From NCBI GenBank assembly GCA_023137615.1, contig JAGLOS010000001.1:1067-65066 (forward strand): a stretch of 64,000 nt of DNA, read 5' to 3'. Both the position numbers and the translations under genes were made by a program. Below, one piece after another: positions 18,399 through 55,834 of the stretch. The notes below the pieces were generated by a model that saw nothing but the letters and a program-made list of their open reading frames with translations, was not told the DNA's origin and searched no databases. The stretch comes from Minisyncoccota bacterium. Its GTDB lineage: Bacteria; Patescibacteriota; Minisyncoccia; Phycocordibacterales; JAGLOS01. Within the stretch, counting starts at the first letter, position 1. Each line of letters begins with the position of its first letter.

Positions 18399-18574
18399 AA
18401 TAACAGGTATTAAACTCCAGAGCAAGCTCTGGACTCAATTTTGAGTTCGCTTCGCTCACACTGACCCGCGGCAAGCCGACGGGGTATTTACCTGATATTA
18501 GCTCCTCGGCTCGGGAATGTAAAAGTTACGCTTCGCTCCACTTTTACATTCCGCTCGCTCTACGTCGCTAATAA
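18399..18574 (+). repeat. MITE-like intergenic repeat, family R1, copy A
   Basis: 176 bp between divergent cupin and U32 genes. Termini are taataacaggtattaaactccagag ... cgctcgctctacgtcgctaataa. Contains internal inverted repeat gaatgtaaaagt/acttttacattc. An inverted, longer copy lies at 52081-52370. Confidence 0.7.
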
Positions 18575-24678: not shown

Positions 24679-24864
24679 GGGTGCCTACCCGGAATATTCA
24701 CTGCTCACTCCTTTCAGTCGTTGCGCTTTCGGAACCCACGGTTCCGAATGACCTCCTCCACGGGGGCGTTCCGCTGCCCCCGACCCCCTACGGGTTCAAA
24801 TCCGGGTAGACAACTTCTGATAACAAATAAACGACTAGCAAAAAGCTAGCCGTTTATTTGTTAT

Positions 24865-24939
24865 GGGGTGCCTACCCGGATTTGAACCGGGACTGGGGGC
24901 TCCACAAACCCCCGTGCTAACCATTACACCATAGGCACC
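24865..24939 (-). tRNA. tRNA-His(GTG)
   Basis: Cloverleaf with extra G-1 and C73 discriminator. Anticodon loop TTGTGGA. T-arm CCGGGTTCAAATCCGGG. Confidence 0.8.
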
Positions 24940-26567: not shown

Positions 26568-26692
26568 CAGCCCCTTCTCCTCCACTTCGTTACAGAGCGG
26601 GGACCCGCTGCTCCGTCTTTCAACTCCCGCTCTGGGCTACATAATACAGCAACCCCGAAGCGCTGCTTCAGGGTTGGTATTTTGTGCTGAGT
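26568..26692 (+). repeat. 121-bp direct repeat unit B, copy 1
   Basis: Identical to the 26776-26895 copy. Contains an inverted copy of the tRNA-Leu 3' end (tcaactcccgctctgggc) and the ctccacttcgttac motif shared with family R3. Confidence 0.75.
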
Positions 26693-26775
26693 TGGTAGGG
26701 AGCTGGTCACGAATCACTAAGCTTTTTGTTCGTCTTTCAGACTCCAAAAAACTAAGTGTTCGCGACCCCGACTCG

Positions 26776-26895
26776 CAGCCCCTTCTCCTCCACTTCGTTA
26801 CAGAGCGGGGACCCGCTGCTCCGTCTTTCAACTCCCGCTCTGGGCTACATAATACAGCAACCCCGAAGCGCTGCTTCAGGGTTGGTATTTTGTGC
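26776..26895 (+). repeat. 121-bp direct repeat unit B, copy 2
   Basis: 100 percent identical to copy 1. Runs directly into the 3' end of tRNA-Leu. Confidence 0.75.
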
Positions 26896-26977
26896 CCAGA
26901 GCGGGAGTTGAACCCGCACGGTCGCAATGACCACTAGCCCCTCAAGCTAGCGTGTATACCAGTTTCACCACCTGGGC
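26893..26977 (-). tRNA. tRNA-Leu(GAG)
   Basis: 85 nt with long variable arm. Anticodon loop TTGAGGG. T-arm GCGGGTTCAACTCCCGC. Confidence 0.8.
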
Positions 26978-29568: not shown

Positions 29569-29644
29569 TTATCTCCTCGGCTCGGAAGTAAAAAGTTTCG
29601 TTTTACTTCACTTTTTACTTCTCTCGCTCTACGTCGCTAATAAT
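29569..29644 (+). repeat. family R1 partial copy C
   Basis: ctcctcggctcggaagtaaaaagtttcgttttacttcactttttacttctctcgctctacgtcgctaataa. Overlaps the last codons and stop of acyP. Confidence 0.65.
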
Positions 29645-30088: not shown

Positions 30089-30162
30089 GGGCGATTAGCT
30101 CAGTTGGCTAGAGCAACCCGTTTACACCGGGTAGGTCGGGGGTTCAAATCCCTCATCGCCCA
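30089..30162 (+). tRNA. tRNA-Val(TAC)
   Basis: 74-nt cloverleaf. Anticodon loop TTTACAC. T-arm GGGGGTTCAAATCCCTC. Confidence 0.85.
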
Positions 30163-30164
30163 CA

Positions 30165-30207
30165 CGCAAAATTAAAATCACCCTTTTGGGGTGATTTTAA
30201 TTTTGCG
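30165..30207 (+). terminator. terminator hairpin after tRNA-Val
   Basis: cgcaaaattaaaatcaccccttttggggtgattttaattttgcg is a perfect long inverted repeat. Confidence 0.6.
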
Positions 30208-30399
30208 CTGTGACGATAGGAAGTGAACTGCTTCACTTCCGTGGGGATTTGAACGGCGGAGTATGTTGGTAAACACCGAGCAAAGCTTGGCGTTTACCAA
30301 CAGCGAGCCGCGTCCAGCGATACTTATTAGATTTCGATTCGTCTTTGACGAAAAAGAAATATAATTAGTAATCGTGGGACGAATCCCTCATCGCCCACA
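30208..30399 (+). repeat. tRNA-linked repeat family R2, copy 1 (ends in a duplicate of the tRNA-Val 3' end)
   Basis: Shares ggatttgaacggcggag, gcgagccgcgtccagcgaYacttaYtagatttcga and aaatataRttagtRatYgtgggac with 55470-55695. Its last 18 bp (aatccctcatcgcccaca) are a direct repeat of the tRNA-Val 3' end 220 bp upstream. Confidence 0.7.
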
Positions 30400-30576: not shown

Positions 30577-30648
30577 GGTTACTAAGTGCCCCCGGCAGGA
30601 ATCGAACCTGCAATAAGAGCTTAGAAGGCTCTCGTTATATCCATTTAA
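30577..30648 (-). tRNA. tRNA-Arg(TCT)
   Basis: 72 nt. Anticodon loop CTTCTAA. T-arm GCAGGTTCGATTCCTGC. Acceptor GCCCCTG/CGGGGGC. Confidence 0.8.
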
Positions 30649-30791
30649 CTACAGGGGCATATTTACTCTATCATATTATCAAAAGACCGTTCACTCGTCA
30701 CAAAACTTATTACAATGCGTCTGATAATCAAACACTCTGTTTGTCCGCTGTCAGCTTGTATCATTCCGAGAGTGACGGGCTTCATGGTTCT

Positions 30792-30816
30792 GCGTTATAT
30801 CCATTTAACTACAGGG
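30792..30816 (-). repeat. 25-bp direct duplicate of tRNA-Arg(TCT) 5' half
   Basis: cgttatatccatttaactacagggg repeats positions 30623-30647 of the gene 143 bp away. Confidence 0.7.
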
Positions 30817-30870
30817 GATAGTACTCAAACCACACAAGCCTCTTCATGGTCGTTCAAAAATATAGCAGTA

Positions 30871-36344: not shown

Positions 36345-38039
36345 CTACACATCTAGCAACTGCAGCACTTTTCCTTTATCTTCCACCGCCCATAAAAAAG
36401 TTGCCAATCTCGGACCGGCGTTTTTCCCGATGAGTAAATTATATACCATCTGAAAAAACCGTTTTTGCCTTTTTATGTTTTCTTTCATGTCTAGCTCTTC
36501 TTTTTTGACAATACCATAAACCAGTTCGTTTAATTCAGGTATTGTTCTGTTTGGATTATCTTTTAATTCGCTTTTTAACTTTCTAACATGCCCTAATTCT
36601 TCCTCAGATAATGTTTCTATATATTCAGTATTTTTCTCTTTTTCTAATTTTATTATCTCCTCGCGATTATAAGTTTCTAACCAATTTTTAGCTTTTACGA
36701 GACGTTCTTTTATACTTTTTTCATCATAATCTTCTTCTTGCGCTTTCAATAACTCAATCATTTTATCTTTATCCCATTGAACAATTTGCCCAAAACCAAC
36801 CGCCTGTCTAAACGGAAGAGGTTTTTTGTATTCACCTTCCCTAGAAACACCACTAATTTTCAATGACTGTATATCAAAATCACTCAGGGGTTCTTCTCCT
36901 GTTTTCATTTCTTCAACTTTTCTGTCAAATTCTGCGTACTGTCTGTAAACTTCACTATCAAAAGCCAGCGAAAAAGTCTTGTTGGGCTCGGTTCTGAAAT
37001 AAAGCCACTTCAAAAGTTCCGGGGAATATATTTCCAACAATTTTCCGGGTGAAACACTGTTTCCTTTTGAACCGGACATTTTGTCTCCAAGTCCCCTAAT
37101 CCCTACGAAATCATATCCTTGATAGACAGGTGGCTCAACACAAAAAACCTCTTTTGCAATAACAGTAGAAGTATCGTAACTTCCTCCTGGAGTAGAGTGA
37201 TCTTTCCCGCCAGGTTCAAAACTGACATCTTCCGCCCCCCACCTCATTGCCCAATCAACTTTCCATGCCAATTTTACAATTCTGACCTTAGTAATATCAA
37301 TTGTTTCAGTTTTCCCGGAATCAAAACATTTGTAAGTTATTTTTTTATCTCCATCATAATCAATAACTTTAGTATTATCTTTTCCGGAAAAGCGAGAATA
37401 GACAGCAATTGGATAATAGTTTTTTATATATTCATCATCAACGATATTTTTATTCTCCTTTCCTTTGTCTGTCATGAAAGAAAGCAAAATTTTTGCTATT
37501 TTCTCTCTATTTTTTAGGGCTTCTATTATTTTTTCATCATATCTTCCAGATTTATGCTCGTTGGTTTGGTATATGTATTCTATCTCTATGTCCAAATCAG
37601 TCATTGCTTTCTCAAATTCTTCTTCTTGATATTTGGCATAAGACTTGTCTGTGCCATCTGGTGAAGGTATTCCTGTTAGAGGAAATCCAATATATTTTTC
37701 AAAACTTGGGTCTATACCCTGCGGAACTTTCCTAAACCTATCAAAATCATCCCAAGAAAAGATCATTCTGGCTTTCTTTCCTCTCTTTTTTAATTCTTCA
37801 AAAACCGCATAAGAGGTAACAATATCTCTAAAATTTCCAAAGTGGATAGTGCCCGATGGACTTATTCCCGAAGCGCACACATACTCATCTTTGTCTGGAA
37901 ATTTCTCCAACACTTTATCGGTATAAGCACTAGCCCAATGAAGTTTGTTTTCTAAACTTTCATCCTCATTTTTAACCCTTTCTTCTTTTTCTGAATTATC
38001 AGTTTTAAATTTTTTCATATTATCTCCAAGTTTTTGCAT
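36345..38039 (-). CDS. lysK: lysyl-tRNA synthetase, class I
   Basis: 564 aa. HIGH-type HFGNFRD and KMSKS-type DKMSGSKG motifs of class I LysRS. Confidence 0.85.
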   Translation of the reverse strand: MQKLGDNMKKFKTDNSEKEERVKNEDESLENKLHWASAYTDKVLEKFPDKDEYVCASGISPSGTIHFGNFRDIVTSYAVFEELKKRGKKARMIFSWDDFDRFRKVPQGIDPSFEKYIGFPLTGIPSPDGTDKSYAKYQEEEFEKAMTDLDIEIEYIYQTNEHKSGRYDEKIIEALKNREKIAKILLSFMTDKGKENKNIVDDEYIKNYYPIAVYSRFSGKDNTKVIDYDGDKKITYKCFDSGKTETIDITKVRIVKLAWKVDWAMRWGAEDVSFEPGGKDHSTPGGSYDTSTVIAKEVFCVEPPVYQGYDFVGIRGLGDKMSGSKGNSVSPGKLLEIYSPELLKWLYFRTEPNKTFSLAFDSEVYRQYAEFDRKVEEMKTGEEPLSDFDIQSLKISGVSREGEYKKPLPFRQAVGFGQIVQWDKDKMIELLKAQEEDYDEKSIKERLVKAKNWLETYNREEIIKLEKEKNTEYIETLSEEELGHVRKLKSELKDNPNRTIPELNELVYGIVKKEELDMKENIKRQKRFFQMVYNLLIGKNAGPRLATFLWAVEDKGKVLQLLDV

Positions 38040-38378: not shown

Positions 38379-38465
38379 GGAGAGATGGCTGAGTGGTCGA
38401 AGGCGACGGTCTTGAAAACCGTTGAGGGTTTACGCCCTCCGTGGGTTCGAATCCCACTCTCTCCG
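38379..38465 (+). tRNA. tRNA-Ser(TGA)
   Basis: 87 nt. Anticodon loop CTTGAAA. Long variable arm. T-arm GTGGGTTCGAATCCCAC. Confidence 0.85.
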
Positions 38466-39162
38466 CATAAAACGTTCAACCCTAATGCGACACAGCATTG
38501 GGGTTGTTACGTTTTACCAGAAGGAGTGGGGTTCGAAAAAAGTCTCGTGCGAAGCCTAACGTAACGAAGTGAAGTCAGAACGAGACGGCGAGGTCACGAG
38601 TTCTTAGAGAAAACAAGTCCGCAGGACGTAGTTTGAACTTAGAACTGGGGACCGAATCCCAATCTCTCCGCAAACAGTAACTTCACGTTCCATACTCAAA
38701 TACCCAAAAAGTCTTTGTGGCAACAATAGACGACTGGTCGATAAACTTAAATAGTCTATCTACATCATAAGTGTAAACAACAGTCCCTGGAGAGGAACCC
38801 GTTGTTGCTGTGTATGGGGTTCCTTCACAATTAGCTTCTAAGTAAAATATTTGATATTAAAACGATTGTTAGTAAGCTCGGAAAACTTGTAAAAGGAAAA
38901 TAAGACTCTTAGCGCGTACTATTACCTATGATACGAGCACAAACAAAATACTCTTGGTAAAAAATACAGAAGCAAAATTTTGGTAAGCCCTTGGTGGTGG
39001 GTGGGAGTATGAGAAAGTTAAAGTATATAATTTATATTATCCCCGTTTATTTAAGTTTTTTACTGGTGTTTATATATTTTACATTTATACTTATAAATAA
39101 GACAAAACTGGGGATTTGTTGATTATTAGTTTTTATCAGTTTTAATAATCAATAACTTTAAT

Positions 39163-49394: not shown

Positions 49395-49892
49395 ATGGAA
49401 GAGATTAGAGAAAAAAGCCGTGAGGAACATGAGGGAGAAAAGCCGGTGCAATGGCAAACGCCAGAGTTCATATATTATACAAAACATCCTTTTTGGTATT
49501 GGATAGCAGGACTCATTACACTACTTGGCTCATTGAACGCTTATCTTTTAGACAATATTATGCTCTCGACGATCATATTGATCGGGGGAATATCAATGAT
49601 CGGTTTTGCCGACAAAAAACCAAAAATTCTTTCCTGTGAAATTAACTGGAAAGGTGTAACGATAGACGACACTACACACCGTTTTCATGAATTTGTTTCA
49701 TTTTGGATAGTAGAGAAAAAAGATGAAAATCTTCTTTTGCTTACTCCTCAAAAAACAATAGCCCAACAAACTGTTGTTCCTCTCGGCGACGCTGACCTAT
49801 ATACTGTACACTCTATTTTGTCCAAACATCTTCCGGAAGAACAAAGCTCCGAACCTTTCGCTCATAAGCTCACGGATCACTTGGGTTTTTAA
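49395..49892 (+). CDS. hypothetical membrane protein
   Basis: 165 aa, two TM helices, no motif. Confidence 0.4.
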   Translation: MEEIREKSREEHEGEKPVQWQTPEFIYYTKHPFWYWIAGLITLLGSLNAYLLDNIMLSTIILIGGISMIGFADKKPKILSCEINWKGVTIDDTTHRFHEFVSFWIVEKKDENLLLLTPQKTIAQQTVVPLGDADLYTVHSILSKHLPEEQSSEPFAHKLTDHLGF

Positions 49893-50014
49893 TTGTTTTG
49901 TGGTACCTTTCTAAAATATGAATGCGACACATTCTCGTTGTACCTGCCTATCGGCAGACAGGATGTGGTAATGAGAAATAAAAAACATTTACAACAGATC
50001 TTCGAGTACAATAT

Positions 50015-50086
50015 CCTCTCGTCGTTCAACGGATAGGACATAGCTTTGCGGAAGCTAAAATGTAGGTTCGATTCCTGCCGAGAGGA
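50015..50086 (+). tRNA. candidate tRNA-Arg(GCG)
   Basis: 72 nt. Acceptor CCTCTCG/CGAGAGG (7 bp perfect). D-arm GTTC-AACGGATA-GGAC. Anticodon arm TAGCT-TTGCGGA-AGCTA. T-arm GTAGG-TTCGATT-CCTGC. Discriminator A. Unusual C1-G72. Confidence 0.55.
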
Positions 50087-50112
50087 CAACTGAAGAAAGT
50101 GAGGGGGGGGAA

Positions 50113-50131
50113 ATTCCTGCCGAGAGGACAA
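50113..50131 (+). repeat. 19-bp direct duplicate of the candidate tRNA-Arg(GCG) 3' end
   Basis: attcctgccgagaggacaa repeats 50071-50089 after a 23-bp spacer. Confidence 0.65.
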
Positions 50132-50256
50132 ACAGAGACTTCCCGCGCTGTCAGCGCGGAGCGATCGGAGAACAACGAATGCGATCCGACACTTTCAACG
50201 ATTGAAAAAGGTGCAAAAGCGCTTAGTGTTGGCGTTGAGGATTTGATGGAATAATT

Positions 50257-51447
50257 ATGTCGCAAATTTCAAAACAAAAGATCAAAGCAAATATTTGGAA
50301 AACTCAAGTATTCAAAATTGTGCAAAATCTTGCATTTTTCACACCTGTCGCTGTCTTATTTTGGCAGGAAAACGGACTGTCTCTTACCGAAATAATGATT
50401 TTGCAATCACTGTTTTCTGTTGCGCTTGTGTTGCTTGAGATTCCGTCAGGATATTTTGCTGACGTGTTCGGTCGCAGACCGTCACTCATTCTTGCTTCTG
50501 TATTTTATCTTGTCGCCGCAATTGGATACAGCTTGGGACACGACTTTGGCACATTCCTTATTGCTGAGTTGCTTTGGGCTGTTGCATGTGCATTTATTTC
50601 CGGCGCGGACTCCGCACTTGTTTATGACTCTTTGCAAAATGTTGGGGAAGAAAAAAATTATAAACGAATTTGGGGCAGTATTTCGTTTTGGGCCTTTTTG
50701 GCAGTTGCGTTTGGTGGAATAGTTGGCGGTTGGATTGGCAGTATAAACTTGCGATGGACATGGTACGCAATGATCCCAACTTTTGCTCTTTTAATTCCTA
50801 TCGCCTTGAGTTTGCAAGAGCCACACAGACACAGGCGCGTTGTCAAAAAGGGTTACATGTTGGAATTGCTAAAAACGATCAAGAGTATTTTTACCAACAA
50901 CCTAAAATTACGTTGGATCATAATTTACAGCGCAGTGATTCTCACTTTCAATCAAGCGGCTTTATGGCTCTATCAACCGTACATGAAAGAAACCGGGCTT
51001 GATATTGTATATTTTGGAATCGCATTTGCTTCATTCAACGTTGTCGCTGCTATCGGATCAAAATACGCCCACTTGTTTGAGAAACTTTTGGGAATGAAAA
51101 GGGTGCTCATTGCATTACCGATTTTTATATCAACGGCATATTTTTTGATGGGTAACTTCGCAATTGTTCTCGGATTTACTTTTGCATTTCTACAACAATT
51201 CGTACGTGGTGTAAAAGGACCAATCATTACCGATCACATAAATAAACTTACTCCTTCCGATATGCGCGCAACGATATTATCCGCCGAGGGATTTGTTGGT
51301 CGACTTGGTTACGCCGCTGTTATTCCGATTGCCGGCTGGGTTGCGGATGTTTACACACTTCAACAAGCATTCAATATCTTAGGGGTCACAACATTGGTTG
51401 TAAGCGGATTTGTTTTGCTTGTTTTACACAGACAGAAGATAATTTAA
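50257..51447 (+). CDS. MFS transporter
   Basis: 396 aa, 12 TM. D-R/K-x-G-R-like motif in loop 2-3 (ADVFGRRPS). Confidence 0.8.
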   Translation: MSQISKQKIKANIWKTQVFKIVQNLAFFTPVAVLFWQENGLSLTEIMILQSLFSVALVLLEIPSGYFADVFGRRPSLILASVFYLVAAIGYSLGHDFGTFLIAELLWAVACAFISGADSALVYDSLQNVGEEKNYKRIWGSISFWAFLAVAFGGIVGGWIGSINLRWTWYAMIPTFALLIPIALSLQEPHRHRRVVKKGYMLELLKTIKSIFTNNLKLRWIIIYSAVILTFNQAALWLYQPYMKETGLDIVYFGIAFASFNVVAAIGSKYAHLFEKLLGMKRVLIALPIFISTAYFLMGNFAIVLGFTFAFLQQFVRGVKGPIITDHINKLTPSDMRATILSAEGFVGRLGYAAVIPIAGWVADVYTLQQAFNILGVTTLVVSGFVLLVLHRQKII

Positions 51448-51604
51448 TTATCAACAAAAAAGCAAATACTACTACTTAAAACAAGAGAGGTAACTACTGT
51501 CGTGTATAAGCGGTGGGTAAAACCTGTTGTGTGATAATTGACAAATATCCTGTATCAATTAGAACTAATGTAATTATAAGTACCTTAAAATAAATTATAT
51601 AAAT

Positions 51605-52054
51605 ATGAAAAAACATAAAAAAGTTATTTTTCTGGATATTGATGGAGTTCTCAATACTGGAGGATCAAACCATATCCATGGTCACGGGACTGCTATGGAT
51701 AAAAAGTGCGTTGAGGTGTTGAGAAAAATTGTGGAAGAATTTAATGCTGTGATCGTTATATCATCAGCGTGGAGAATCGGTCCCGGAATTCTAAGAATAA
51801 AAAAGGGGTTAAGTTGGGTTGGTTGGGATAATCCGCCCATCATTGGAAAAACTCCCAACCTTAATCTTTTGAAAGAAAGACGAGGAAAAGAGATCCAACA
51901 TTGGCTCTCCCATAATCCTACAGAATCATATATAATAATCGAGGATGAGCCTTGCGACTTATTGAAAGAACAATTCCCTTTTCTTGTACAACCAAGTTCT
52001 ACTGATGGTTTACAAGAAAAGCATCTTCAGCAAATACGCAATATGTGGAAATAA
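51605..52054 (+). CDS. HAD-superfamily phosphatase-like protein
   Basis: 149 aa. N-terminal FLDIDGVL motif I. Small cap-less HAD, polynucleotide 3'-phosphatase-like. Confidence 0.55.
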   Translation: MKKHKKVIFLDIDGVLNTGGSNHIHGHGTAMDKKCVEVLRKIVEEFNAVIVISSAWRIGPGILRIKKGLSWVGWDNPPIIGKTPNLNLLKERRGKEIQHWLSHNPTESYIIIEDEPCDLLKEQFPFLVQPSSTDGLQEKHLQQIRNMWK

Positions 52055-52080: not shown

Positions 52081-52370
52081 TTATTAGCGACGTAGAGCGA
52101 GCGGAATGTAAAAGTGGAGCGAAACGCAACTTTTACATTTCCAAGCCGAGGATCTAATATCGGATAAACCCGTCTGCCGGCAGGCGGGTACTCCGTCGGC
52201 TTGCTGCGGGAAAATGTGAGCAAAACGAATTCAAAATTGAGTCCAGAGTGAGAAGCGAATACTTGGAGCTTCGCAAGACTCATTGAGAGCTTTTATGAGC
52301 AAAGCGAAATAAAAGATCCAATGAGTGGACAGAACCTGTAAGGTTTGCTCTGGGGTTTAATACCTGTTAT
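52081..52370 (-). repeat. MITE-like repeat family R1, copy B (inverted, extended)
   Basis: Reverse complement of copy A, with the same termini (ttattagcgacgtagagcgagcgg ... tttaatacctgttatt). Carries two internal insertions of about 25 and about 100 bp relative to copy A. Confidence 0.7.
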
Positions 52371-52387
52371 TTTTCAGTTTCTAAAAA

Positions 52388-55239: not shown

Positions 55240-55242
55240 CAA

Positions 55243-55285
55243 GCGCAAAACAAAAGCACCCGTTTAGGGTGCTTTTGTTTTAGCA
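55243..55285 (+). terminator. terminator hairpin after tRNA-Lys
   Basis: gcgcaaaacaaaagcacccgtttagggtgcttttgttttagc. Confidence 0.6.
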
Positions 55286-55469
55286 AGCAAACTGCTTTGC
55301 TTGCGACGCTTGTCCGAGGCGGAACCATAATTTTTCTGTAATGAAATGGAAGAAAAATAGGTGAGCCGGGGTCGCGAGCACTTAGCAGATTTGAATCTGA
55401 GTTTACGAAGATGCGACATTGTTTTCTTATGAGTGAAACGAATTAGAAAACAAGAAGTGCCCTTGTGGT

Positions 55470-55695
55470 GAAAAATATGCTTAGTGACTTGTGACGACAA
55501 TGGATCTGAACGGCGGAGCATGGGTCCCTGCCTGAAACGAAGTGTAAGGTAGGGCTGCGAGCCGCGTCCAGCGACACTTACTAGATTTCGAGTGAAGCGG
55601 AGAAATATAGTTAGTGATTGTGGGACAAGTCCTGTGTTTATCTTTAAATTCGAGCCTTGCGAGAACAAAAAATATGCTTAGTGACTTGTGACGAC
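55470..55695 (+). repeat. tRNA-linked repeat family R2, copy 2, flanked by 27-bp direct repeats
   Basis: The core shares three blocks with 30208-30399. It is flanked by aaaaatatgcttagtgacttgtgacgac at 55472-55498 and again at 55668-55694. Confidence 0.7.
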
Positions 55696-55834
55696 TGTAA
55701 ATCAGTAAACCGGAGGTTTTCCTTGTTTTCCCAACAGAACTTGTGACAAAGTTCTATAAATATTTCTGTCTCTTATAAATTTAAACGTTTTTGCAAAACC
55801 AACACAAGCTATTATTTTCTGTTATCATATACCC

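What the first reader, a model, noticed from the sequence alone, without database searches (positions are those of the whole stretch)
50015..50135. Unpredicted candidate tRNA-Arg(GCG) with C1-G72 acceptor pair and duplicated 3' end
A 72-nt sequence folds into a complete cloverleaf (7-bp perfect acceptor, G18G19, TTCGATT T-loop, 5-bp perfect anticodon stem, loop TTGCGGA). Its 3' 19 nt are repeated 23 bp downstream. A GCG anticodon and a C1 start are uncommon in bacteria. It could be a functional minor tRNA-Arg, a suppressor-like variant, or a tRNA-like element.
Basis: seen in the sequence. Interest (0 to 1): 0.5.

Follow-up and report, generated by a model that had tools for sequence, protein, structure and literature searches.

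The report
Ordinary tRNA-Arg with an insertion scar
This is a genuine arginine tRNA gene of the kind that ultra-small Patescibacteria (CPR) bacteria normally use, and the repeated copy of its end is most likely a scar from a small structured DNA element, one of a family that inserts behind many tRNA genes in these bacteria and seems not to have been described.

Summary
ARAGORN and Rfam both call a tRNA-Arg(GCG) at 50015-50086/7. The 19-nt string ATTCCTGCCGAGAGGACAA occurs exactly twice, 23 nt apart, in three independent assemblies.

The tRNA is not unusual for its lineage. The window is Patescibacteria (CPR). Fifty-three distinct CPR tRNA-Arg(GCG) genes show 99.8% pairing, and the 1-72 pair is either G-C or C-G. 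Shulgina & Eddy (2021) already reported that CPR lack tRNA-Arg(ACG) and use GCG.

The repeat is the more interesting part. At the same locus (tRNA-Arg then rpsT), relatives are empty, carry a full ~200-nt element ending in a 22-nt copy of the tRNA 3' end, or carry the window's short form.

Among 273 CPR tRNAs, 34 have a direct copy of their 3' end downstream and 31 have an inverted copy. Upstream the counts are 0 and 1. His, Val, Leu and Ser tRNAs in this window carry full versions.

One element type has a covarying three-way-junction fold, no Rfam match and no recombinase nearby. I read the window's repeat as a non-functional scar of this family. How the elements insert is unknown.

The parts
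50015..50086 (+). tRNA-Arg(GCG) gene, 72 nt to discriminator A73, with no encoded CCA. The anticodon is at 50048-50050.
   Evidence: ARAGORN. Rfam RF00005, 56.6 bits. Cloverleaf MFE. Family covariation.
50071..50089 (+). Repeat copy 1: ATTCCTGCCGAGAGGACAA. It runs from T-loop position 58 to the discriminator plus 3 nt of trailer.
   Evidence: Exact match search.
50090..50112 (+). 23-nt spacer CTGAAGAAAGTGAGGGGGGGGAA, containing a G8 run. It is homologous to the spacer of the relative L162 and resembles the last ~25 nt of the His-linked element in this window.
   Evidence: Window vs L162: 1 of 2000 shuffles score as well. Window vs His element end: 20 of 2000. Window vs L160 element end: not significant.
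50113..50131 (+). Repeat copy 2, a displaced or duplicated tRNA 3' end (attR-like). It does not form a second tRNA.
   Evidence: The orthologous copy in L162 is split by a 78-nt nested insert.
50143..50159 (+). Hairpin CCGCGCT-GTC-AGCGCGG followed by GAGCGATCGGAG. This is a fragment resembling the hairpin and GCGGAGCGA motifs of the element family. It is not followed by a T run.
   Evidence: Sequence. No terminator-like site in 49850-50300.
24679..24863 (-). Sister element behind tRNA-His (24864-24938). It consists of a terminator hairpin, an inverted arm CTACCCGGATTTGAACC (24793-24809), a core, and a direct copy TCCGGGTAGGCACCC (24679-24693).
30164..30399 (+). Sister element behind tRNA-Val (30089-30163). 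It consists of terminator palindrome 30165-30207, arm GGGATTTGAAC (30244-30254), a core, and a direct copy AATCCCTCATCGCCCACA (30382-30399).
26568..26891 (-). Two tandem sister elements behind tRNA-Leu (26892-26977), with a 208-nt period. Arms GCCCAGAGCGGGAGTTGAA lie at 26827-26845 and 26619-26637.
   Evidence: (120 nt 100% identical repeat).
38467..38672 (+). Sister element behind tRNA-Ser (38379-38466), ending in a direct copy CGAATCCCA.TCTCTCCGCA (38653-38672).

Best explanation
The 72-nt gene is the normal, functional CGU/CGC-decoding tRNA-Arg(GCG) of a Patescibacteria (CPR) bacterium.

The second copy of its last 16 nt plus 3 trailer nt is not part of the tRNA's function. It is the duplicated or displaced 3' end left by a small insertion behind the tRNA. 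The insertion belongs to a family of 100-230-nt elements that carry no protein gene and sit immediately downstream of many CPR tRNA genes. Each element ends in a direct copy of the tRNA from the T loop to a few nt past the 3' end.

In this genome and its nearest relative only a ~23-30-nt stub lies between the two copies. This is either a short form or an internally deleted element.

Shown: the tRNA, the repeat, the empty/full/short series at the same locus, the family census and the conserved fold of one element type. Inferred: that the repeat arose by insertion (site-specific or short-homology recombination in the T loop, catalysed in trans), and that copy 2 is now inert.
For: tRNA:
- Detection and fold.
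- Family: 53 distinct CPR tRNA-Arg(GCG) have 99.8% of cells paired and 17 of 21 pairs with compensatory change. The 1-72 pair is G-C in 37 and C-G in 16. GCG, A20 and A73 are invariant.
- Synteny: the order upstream 165-aa ORF, tRNA-Arg(GCG), rpsT, ruvA, mur ligase is conserved across CPR.
- Need: CGT plus CGC are 36% of Arg codons.
- Literature: PMC8629427.

Repeat:
- It is exact, unique and present in 3 assemblies.
- Orthologous loci: L163/L164 are empty, with the tRNA followed by the terminator and then rpsT. L160/L161 and L018 carry a full element ending in the 22-nt copy TCCTGCCGAGAGGACAATAAAA, followed by the terminator shared with rpsT. L162 has the window's short spacer plus the copy, but the copy is split by a 78-nt nested insert, so an intact copy is not required.
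- Across CPR the tRNA-Arg to rpsT gap is either 0-75 nt with no copy, or 170-800 nt with a copy and one of three different core types.
- Census of 273 non-redundant tRNAs: direct 3'-end copy downstream in 34, inverted copy in 31, both in 14. Upstream controls give 0 and 1. At least nine isotypes are affected.
- Tandem arrays occur in L133 x3, L116 x3, L069 x2 and the window's Leu x2.
- L054 (empty) compared with L116 (filled) shows the original terminator displaced behind the last copy.
- The downstream copies decay (L069, L143, L136, L051).
Against: - No recombinase, transposase or reverse transcriptase lies in the elements or anywhere in the 64-kb window, so the inserting activity is unidentified.
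- The 23-nt spacer is not demonstrably homologous to the end of the full element at the orthologous locus in L160/L018. 'Internal deletion of a full element' is therefore only one possibility.
- The short form is shared with L162 (84% Mur ligase identity), so it has persisted. This could also mean it is tolerated or useful.
- The elements have a conserved fold and an arm complementary to the tRNA 3' end. A pure 'scar' view does not explain these.
- No excision or circular junction was observed. Read-level data are not available here.
Confidence: 0.7

Rival explanations
1. The elements, and possibly the short form, are functional cis-acting RNA. On this view they are transcribed by read-through behind the tRNA. 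The inverted arm can pair either with the tRNA's own 3' third or with the downstream copy. This would give an attenuator-like switch, an RNase III or RNase P/Z processing signal, or a tRNA minihelix mimic that controls tRNA 3' maturation or insulates downstream genes.
For: - The type A core has a conserved three-way junction: 91% of cells paired, 16 of 21 pairs compensatory, 0 of 500 shuffles as good, slid controls 39-53%.
- G-U pairs outnumber A-C 17 to 6 on the tRNA strand.
- The arm is the exact complement of the T loop, the T-stem 3' strand and the acceptor 3' strand.
- Elements sit behind 4 of the 7 tRNAs in a streamlined genome, and a fifth (Lys) is followed by related cores.
Against: - Presence is patchy at one and the same locus among close relatives, including empty sites.
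- Different core types occupy the same site.
- An intrinsic terminator usually separates the tRNA from the element, and there is no promoter in between.
- The downstream copies and the outer arm decay.
- In L162 the copy is interrupted.
- The window's own version lacks the arm and the core altogether.
Confidence: 0.15
2. This is a classical prophage or integrative-element scar. A kilobase-scale element with its own integrase integrated into the tRNA-Arg T loop and was later deleted almost completely, leaving attL and attR 23 nt apart.
For: - The repeat runs from the T loop to 3 nt past the tRNA end, which is the standard extent of att identity blocks.
- Partial tRNA copies from integration are common in prokaryotes (bioRxiv 10.1101/2022.07.05.498093).
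- The tRNA 3' flank is an indel hot spot: L063 has a 520-nt gene insert relative to L144, and the window has MFS plus HAD (about 2 kb) inserted between the tRNA region and rpsT.
Against: - The filled states seen at this locus and at about 50 other tRNAs are all 100-230 nt, with conserved cores. None is a decayed kilobase element.
- There is no integrase in the window.
- The 19-mer and the element cores are absent from 2.9 million viral contigs, except for one CPR-like contig, L150.
- The MFS/HAD insert lies outside the repeat pair, not between the copies.
Confidence: 0.08
3. This is a local replication error (slippage or template switching) that duplicated 19 nt, unrelated to any element.
For: - The distance is short (42-nt period).
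- Perfect long palindromes around tRNA terminators in many loci suggest that template switching operates in these regions.
Against: - It is not a head-to-tail duplication. The sequences before and after the two copies differ.
- The same boundaries, T loop to +3..+8, recur at dozens of tRNAs with elements in between.
- The spacer is conserved in L162 and resembles an element end.
Confidence: 0.05
4. The tRNA is a pseudogene or a decoy, and the real CGY decoder is elsewhere.
For: No intrinsic terminator follows it in the window. Its score is the second lowest of the 7 tRNAs.
Against: All stems are perfect, the identity elements are present, synteny is conserved, and the family shows strong compensatory evolution. 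CPR lack the ACG alternative.
Confidence: 0.02

Closest known systems
tRNA-Arg(GCG) of the Candidate Phyla Radiation (Shulgina & Eddy 2021, eLife, PMC8629427) and archaeal tRNA-Arg(GCG)
   Same: G34 decoder of CGU/CGC in lineages that do not use the TadA/inosine route. The anticodon arm, A20 and A73 are the same across CPR.
   Different: Nothing essential differs. This copy has C1-G72 instead of G1-C72, as do about 30% of the CPR family.
attL/attR partial tRNA duplications left by tyrosine-integrase elements that cross over in the T loop (knowledge: Williams 2002 sublocation classes; general statement in bioRxiv 10.1101/2022.07.05.498093). This includes integrase-less cis-mobilisable elements (CIMEs) and tandem accretion.
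   Same: The direct repeat runs from the T loop to a few nt beyond the tRNA. The tRNA is kept intact and the original terminator is displaced downstream. Tandem arrays occur, and sites are present or absent among relatives.
   Different: The inserts are only 100-230 nt (23 nt here). They carry no gene and have no integrase nearby. They have a conserved folded core and an arm complementary to the target.
Folded single-strand recombination sites: integron attC sites and the CTX-phi attP(+) hairpin used by XerCD (knowledge)
   Same: Structure is conserved more than sequence. An inverted copy pairs with a direct copy, so the fold recreates a duplex that looks like the chromosomal target. The elements depend on a recombinase encoded elsewhere.
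   Different: The target here is a tRNA gene end, not attI or dif. No IntI or Xer involvement is shown. It is not known whether the folded species is DNA or RNA.
Guide-carrying mobile RNAs: group I/II intron IGS/EBS pairing and IS110 bridge RNA (knowledge)
   Same: The element carries a stretch complementary to the sequence flanking its insertion site, and this stretch differs with the target tRNA.
   Different: There are no intron or bridge-RNA motifs and no Rfam hit. There is no IS110 recombinase, and those systems do not produce 19-22-nt direct repeats.
MITEs / REP-BIME intergenic repeats
   Same: Small, non-coding, structured, multi-copy elements that often sit next to terminators.
   Different: They have no terminal inverted repeats and no 2-10-bp target duplication. 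Their location and orientation are strictly tRNA-3'-end specific.

Membership tests
tRNA (Rfam RF00005) | Cloverleaf scoring above the family gathering score | tested here: met
   56.6 bits against 29. ARAGORN call. MFE is the cloverleaf.
tRNA-Arg (ArgRS identity set as known from E. coli: A20, C35, G/U36, A/G73) | Identity nucleotides present | tested here: met
   The D loop AACGGATA gives A20. The anticodon is G34 C35 G36 and the discriminator is A. Charging itself is not testable here.
CPR tRNA-Arg(GCG) CGY decoder | Invariant GCG anticodon, compensatory evolution of all four stems, conserved genomic neighbourhood | tested here: met
   99.8% paired and 17 of 21 pairs compensatory in 53 sequences. 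Synteny with rpsT-ruvA-mur. 21 of 21 genome hits are Patescibacteria-type.
CPR tRNA-Arg(GCG) CGY decoder | Absence of tRNA-Arg(ACG)/tadA in the same genome | not testable with these tools
   Only 64 kb is available. No deaminase was found among the window's ORFs. There are 84 GCG against 1 ACG in sampled loci. Literature statement.
Suppressor tRNA | Anticodon complementary to a stop codon or a reassigned codon | tested here: not met
   The anticodon GCG pairs with CGC/CGU.
Integrative-element att scar at a tRNA | Direct repeat made of the tRNA 3' part extending past the gene end | tested here: met
   19 nt, from position 58 to +3. 22 nt in L160.
Integrative-element att scar at a tRNA | Empty and filled states at orthologous loci | tested here: met
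   L163/L164 are empty, L160/L161/L018 are full, and L162 and the window are short. Gap distribution. L054 vs L116.
Integrative-element att scar at a tRNA | Integrase gene and kilobase cargo between or next to the repeats | tested here: not met
   23 nt lies between the repeats. There is no Phage_integrase, transposase or resolvase hit in the 50 ORFs of 80 aa or more that were scanned with Pfam here; the 41-61 kb stretch was also checked against precomputed Pfam families on contig L001.
MITE | Terminal inverted repeats and a short (2-10 bp) target-site duplication | tested here: not met
   The element ends are a tRNA trailer on one side and a tRNA 3'-end copy on the other. The duplication is 15-24 nt.
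Simple tandem duplication | Head-to-tail repeat of the whole unit | tested here: not met
   Only the 19-mer is repeated. The flanks differ.
Any described RNA family (Rfam 15) | Covariance-model match | tested here: not met
   Only tRNA and RNase P were found in 15 loci at E<=1. Small-region scans at E<=10 give only hairpin noise.
Folded-strand recombination site (attC / CTX-phi type) | Structure-conserved hairpin that recreates the target duplex, with a trans recombinase | tested here: inconclusive
   Arm-to-copy pairing and covariation are shown. The recombinase and the nature of the strand (DNA or RNA) are not testable here.

The most novel reading that the evidence does not exclude
Patescibacteria harbour an undescribed class of 100-230-nt, gene-less, highly structured insertion elements that home to the 3' end of tRNA genes. 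Each element carries an arm that is the Watson-Crick complement of its target tRNA's T loop, T-stem 3' strand and acceptor 3' strand, so the arm is guide-like and differs per tRNA. Each element supplies a replacement tRNA 3' end, often with its own terminator, and displaces the original 3' end as a 15-24-nt direct repeat. Insertion would depend on base-pairing between the element (as RNA or folded single-stranded DNA) and the tRNA gene, and would be carried out by a host or trans-encoded enzyme. The window's 19-nt repeat is a relic of one such event.
Probability: 0.3. Interest if true: 0.8.

Novelty: new variant of a known kind. Interest (0 to 1): 0.45.

Why it matters
The tRNA itself only confirms published knowledge: CPR decode CGY with a G34 tRNA-Arg and do not use inosine.

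The repeat matters as a pointer. About one CPR tRNA in five, and four of the seven in this window with a fifth followed by related cores, is followed by a small structured element whose arm is complementary to that tRNA's 3' end and which ends in a copy of it. If these elements are mobile, they would be an extremely small, target-matched insertion system in some of the most streamlined bacterial genomes. If they are functional RNAs, they would be a new layer of tRNA transcript handling in CPR.

There are practical consequences as well. These copies can be mis-annotated as tRNA fragments, and they break assemblies at tRNA loci: contig L159 ends just before this tRNA.

Tried and rejected
- **Viral origin.** The 19-mer, the type A core and the type C core were scanned against IMG/VR. 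The results were 0 hits, 1 real hit (L150, a CPR-like contig with tRNA-Ser) and 0 hits.
- **Neighbour gene as synteny anchor.** The MFS transporter next to the tRNA is not syntenic in its 88%, 72% and 64% relatives, so it is itself an insertion. The upstream 165-aa ORF had only one useful relative, and that contig ends before the tRNA. The Mur ligase worked.
- **RNAalifold on the raw MAFFT alignment.** It recovered only one helix. A hand-given structure plus a covariance model was needed.
- **Known ribozymes and RNAs.** A by-eye comparison of the junction strands (GAA / GUACUG / A) with the hammerhead core shows the wrong strand order. Twister, pistol, hatchet, group I/II introns, Y-RNA-like, TnpB/IscB guide RNAs and box C/D RNAs are excluded only to the extent that Rfam gives no hit.
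- **Arm as a copy of the tRNA 5' strands (a pseudo-tRNA).** Rejected. L013 has CCTCTCG, not its tRNA's CTTCTTG. L018 has GCAGG, not GTAGG.
- **Arm as a primer-binding site for mature tRNA.** Rejected. Where CCA is not encoded, the arm complements the genomic trailer, not CCA.
- **Homology of the 23-nt spacer to the end of the full element in L160/L018.** Not supported.
- **Literature.** Four searches for such elements found nothing, and a fifth failed on a term-syntax error.
- **TIGR arrays in CPR.** Considered because of two-strand complementarity, but the architecture is different.

Full report
**1. What is at 50015-50135.**

ARAGORN predicts tRNA-Arg(gcg) at 50015-50087. Rfam's tRNA model scores 56.6 bits against a gathering score of 29. 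The isolated 73 nt fold into the cloverleaf as the minimum-free-energy and centroid structure, and the cloverleaf survives when 120 nt of downstream sequence are added. The gene is therefore predicted by standard tools.

The string ATTCCTGCCGAGAGGACAA lies at 50071-50089 and 50113-50131, and nowhere else in the window even with three mismatches. Three contigs assembled from different samples carry the identical arrangement.

**2. The organism and the tRNA.**

The window encodes bacterial housekeeping genes: RuvA, Mur ligases, L11, NusG, L19, type IV pilus parts and a class I LysRS. Its MFS and Mur proteins are labelled 'Candidatus Pacebacteria bacterium' in NCBI.

A scan of one genome per prokaryotic species for this tRNA's anticodon arm plus T loop returned 21 loci. 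All are Patescibacteria MAGs except one labelled Gammaproteobacteria, which is 84% identical to a Woesebacteria contig. All 21 carry tRNA-Arg(GCG).

Fifty-three distinct CPR tRNA-Arg(GCG) sequences align without gaps. In this alignment 99.8% of stem cells are paired and 17 of 21 pairs show compensatory change. The first pair is G-C in 37 sequences and C-G in 16. U8, G18G19, A20, U33, G34C35G36, the T loop and A73 are invariant or nearly so. C1-G72 is also used by the window's tRNA-Lys.

CGT and CGC are 8.4 and 5.3 per thousand codons in the window's ORFs, so a CGY decoder is needed. In loci recovered with an anticodon-blind pattern I counted 84 GCG, 37 CCG, 19 CCT, 15 TCT, 2 TCG and 1 ACG tRNA-Arg.

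Shulgina & Eddy (eLife 2021, PMC8629427) state that tRNA-Arg(ACG) appears to be lacking in the CPR, which instead use tRNA-Arg(GCG) for CGU/CGC. The tRNA is therefore real, functional by every sequence criterion, and already known as a lineage trait.

**3. The repeat at the orthologous locus.**

The order upstream 165-aa ORF, tRNA-Arg(GCG), rpsT (convergent), ruvA, mur ligase is conserved across CPR. Using the Mur ligase to fetch the closest relatives, I found a graded series:

| Locus (Mur ligase identity) | State behind tRNA-Arg(GCG) |
|---|---|
| L163/L164 (76%) | Empty: tRNA, then a bidirectional terminator, then rpsT |
| L160/L161 (81%) and L018 (79%) | Full ~200-nt element; in L160/L161: own terminator, then the arm GAGGCAGGAATAGAAC (inverted copy of the T loop and T-stem 3' strand), a core, a 22-nt exact copy of the tRNA end (TCCTGCCGAGAGGACAATAAAA), then the terminator shared with rpsT |
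| L162 (84%) | The window's short form: spacer AAATTACAAAGCAAGTGAGGGGTAAGA, then ATTCCTGC, a 78-nt nested insert, CGAGAGGACAAAC, terminator, rpsT |

The window has the same spacer family and an uninterrupted copy. It then has a ~2-kb MFS plus HAD insertion that relatives lack, and then rpsT.

The window spacer is homologous to that of L162 (1 of 2000 shuffles score as well). It resembles the last ~25 nt of the His-linked element in the same genome (20 of 2000). It is not demonstrably similar to the end of the L160/L018 element. Because L162 tolerates a 78-nt insert inside the copy, an intact copy 2 has no evident function.

**4. The wider phenomenon.**

The T-arm plus acceptor 3' strand of this tRNA is shared by all CPR tRNA-Arg isoacceptors.

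Many tRNAs, not only Arg, are followed by two features. At +20 to +85 nt there is an inverted copy of their own T loop and T-stem 3' strand, often extended to the acceptor 3' strand. At +100 to +230 nt there is a direct copy running from the T loop to a few nt past the gene.

I ran a strict census of 273 non-redundant tRNAs with other tRNA genes masked. It finds the direct copy downstream in 34, the inverted copy in 31 and both in 14. The same test upstream gives 0 and 1. Arg, His, Val, Leu, Lys, Ser, Pro, Phe, Gly and Met are affected.

In this window, tRNA-His, tRNA-Val, tRNA-Leu (two tandem units) and tRNA-Ser carry full versions. tRNA-Lys is followed by 600 nt of related cores.

At the tRNA-Arg to rpsT junction across CPR, the gap is either 0-75 nt with no copy, or 170-800 nt with a copy and one of three unrelated core types. 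This argues for repeated independent gain. Tandem arrays (L133, L116, L069, window Leu) and an empty/filled ortholog pair in which the original terminator sits behind the last copy (L054 vs L116) point the same way.

**5. Anatomy of the elements.**

The best-sampled type ('A') reads as follows:
- optional terminator
- complement of the acceptor 3' strand
- hairpin
- GCAGGAATC-GAA
- long helix with a tandem G-A internal loop
- GUACUG
- short hairpin with a YGUAR loop
- GAUUCCUGC plus the acceptor 3' strand

A covariance model built from 13 copies found 19. They lie behind tRNA-Arg, Ser, His and Val, and the closing helix changes with the tRNA.

On that alignment, 91% of cells pair and 16 of 21 pairs have compensatory changes. 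None of 500 shuffles and none of six slid registers comes close. The caveat is that the alignment is fitted to the model. G-U pairs outnumber A-C 17 to 6, so the folded strand is the tRNA strand.

The arm is the complement of the tRNA 3' strand, not a copy of its 5' strands. It is CCTCTCG in L013, whose tRNA starts CTTCTTG, and GCAGG in L018, whose T stem starts GTAGG. Where the gene lacks CCA, the arm continues into the genomic trailer, so it matches the gene or the primary transcript, not mature tRNA.

In several loci the palindrome running from the acceptor 3' strand through the trailer and terminator to the arm is perfect over 25-30 bp, although the terminators are unrelated between loci. 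I cannot explain this.

No Rfam family matches. No recombinase, transposase or reverse transcriptase was found among the window ORFs examined. Viral contigs lack the elements, apart from one CPR-like contig.

**6. Mechanism.**

Shown:
- the tRNA
- the exact repeat
- empty, full and short states at one locus
- downstream-only enrichment of direct and inverted 3'-end copies
- tandem arrays
- decay of the downstream copies
- a conserved fold in one core type

Inferred: the elements enter at the T loop by recombination between a tRNA-3'-end-like segment of the element and the gene. The element-borne copy completes the tRNA, and the original 3' end with its terminator is pushed downstream. This is what all tRNA-integrating elements do (for the general case).

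The enzyme must act in trans. The complementary arm may recreate the target duplex in a folded strand, as in integron attC sites or the CTX-phi hairpin. It may instead act as a guide, or serve an RNA function after read-through. I give the scar reading for the window's repeat 0.7. The rivals are a functional cis-RNA (0.15), a fully deleted classical prophage or ICE (0.08), a local replication error (0.05) and a pseudogene tRNA (0.02).

**7. Comparison and novelty.**

The tRNA is already known biology. Partial tRNA copies as integration scars are known. What I could not find described, in four literature searches that returned results (a fifth failed on a term-syntax error) or in Rfam, is a family of gene-less, 100-230-nt, structure-conserved inserts with a target-complementary arm behind about 19% of CPR tRNAs.

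I file the finding as a new variant of a known kind. Overall interest is 0.45, because the feature at the given coordinates is a degenerate relic and the tRNA is ordinary. The family it points to deserves a dedicated study.

**8. Limits.**

- Only 64 kb of the genome was available.
- The locus sets are biased towards tRNA-Arg by the search patterns.
- The covariation alignment is model-fitted.
- Core types B and C were defined by eye and by motif only.
- No expression or read-level data could be examined.
- Absence from the literature is limited to the open-access library searched.

Noticed in passing
window 24679-24863 (-), 26568-26891 (-), 30164-30399 (+), 38467-38672 (+): tRNA-His, tRNA-Leu (two tandem 208-nt units, 120 nt of them 100% identical), tRNA-Val and tRNA-Ser are each followed by a structured element. 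Each element has an inverted copy of the tRNA's T loop and T-stem 3' strand and a terminal direct copy of the tRNA 3' end.
   Followed up: partly
window 52081-52371 (+) and 18399-18574 (-); third fragment at 29623-29643: A ~290-nt non-coding repeat, 87-96% identical between copies. The 52-kb copy contains an extra ~95 nt (52249-52343) inserted in the loop of the hairpin CCAGAG/CTCTGG. This insert matches the type A core model (32 bits, E about 6e-7) although no tRNA is involved.
   Followed up: partly
window 30793-30817 vs 30633-30657 (-): A 25-nt exact copy of nucleotides 2-26 of tRNA-Arg(TCT) lies 135 nt upstream of that gene, preceded by a promoter-like context similar to that of other tRNAs. 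Small insertions therefore also occur on the 5' side, with a displaced 5' fragment.
   Followed up: partly
window 55241-55834 (+): About 600 nt of non-coding DNA lies behind tRNA-Lys(TTT), which also has C1-G72. It contains internal repeats (55471-55498 = 55668-55695) and a core 76-94% identical to the Val-linked element (55557-55632 vs 30303-30386). That core ends in AAGTCCT, which matches the Lys T loop and stem.
   Followed up: partly
window 50257-52054 (+): An MFS transporter and a HAD_SAK_2 (RNA-repair-type HAD) gene sit between tRNA-Arg(GCG) and rpsT. Relatives have these two neighbours adjacent, and the closest MFS homologues (88%, 72%, 64%) lie in unrelated contexts. This is a recent ~2-kb insertion just outside the repeat pair.
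   Followed up: partly
L069, L049, L070, L091, L120, L136 (tRNA 3' flanks): Perfect 25-30-bp palindromes run from the acceptor 3' strand through the trailer and an intrinsic terminator into the element arm. The terminator sequences are unrelated between loci. This suggests templated fold-back copying or strong selection for a long hairpin.
   Followed up: no
L116 9256-9500 vs L054; L135; L023 925-975; L162 1040-1125: Pseudo 3' halves of tRNA-Arg carry short hairpin inserts exactly in the anticodon loop, in the T loop, or at the T-stem/acceptor junction (position 65/66). This is the same junction where the hairpin splits the complementary arm of full elements.
   Followed up: no
L063 9845-10389 vs L144 8128-8154; L035 vs L025: Nearly identical genomes (99%) differ by 300-520-nt gene-containing indels placed exactly at a tRNA 3' end, without any repeat. 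The tRNA 3' flank is a general hot spot of variation in CPR.
   Followed up: no
window 36345-38039 (-): The lysyl-tRNA synthetase is of class I (Pfam tRNA-synt_1f), the type usual in archaea and found in only some bacteria.
   Followed up: no
window 49850-50300: No intrinsic terminator follows tRNA-Arg(GCG) in the window. Relatives have one, either directly after the tRNA or after the downstream copy. Here it has been separated from the tRNA by the MFS/HAD insertion.
   Followed up: partly
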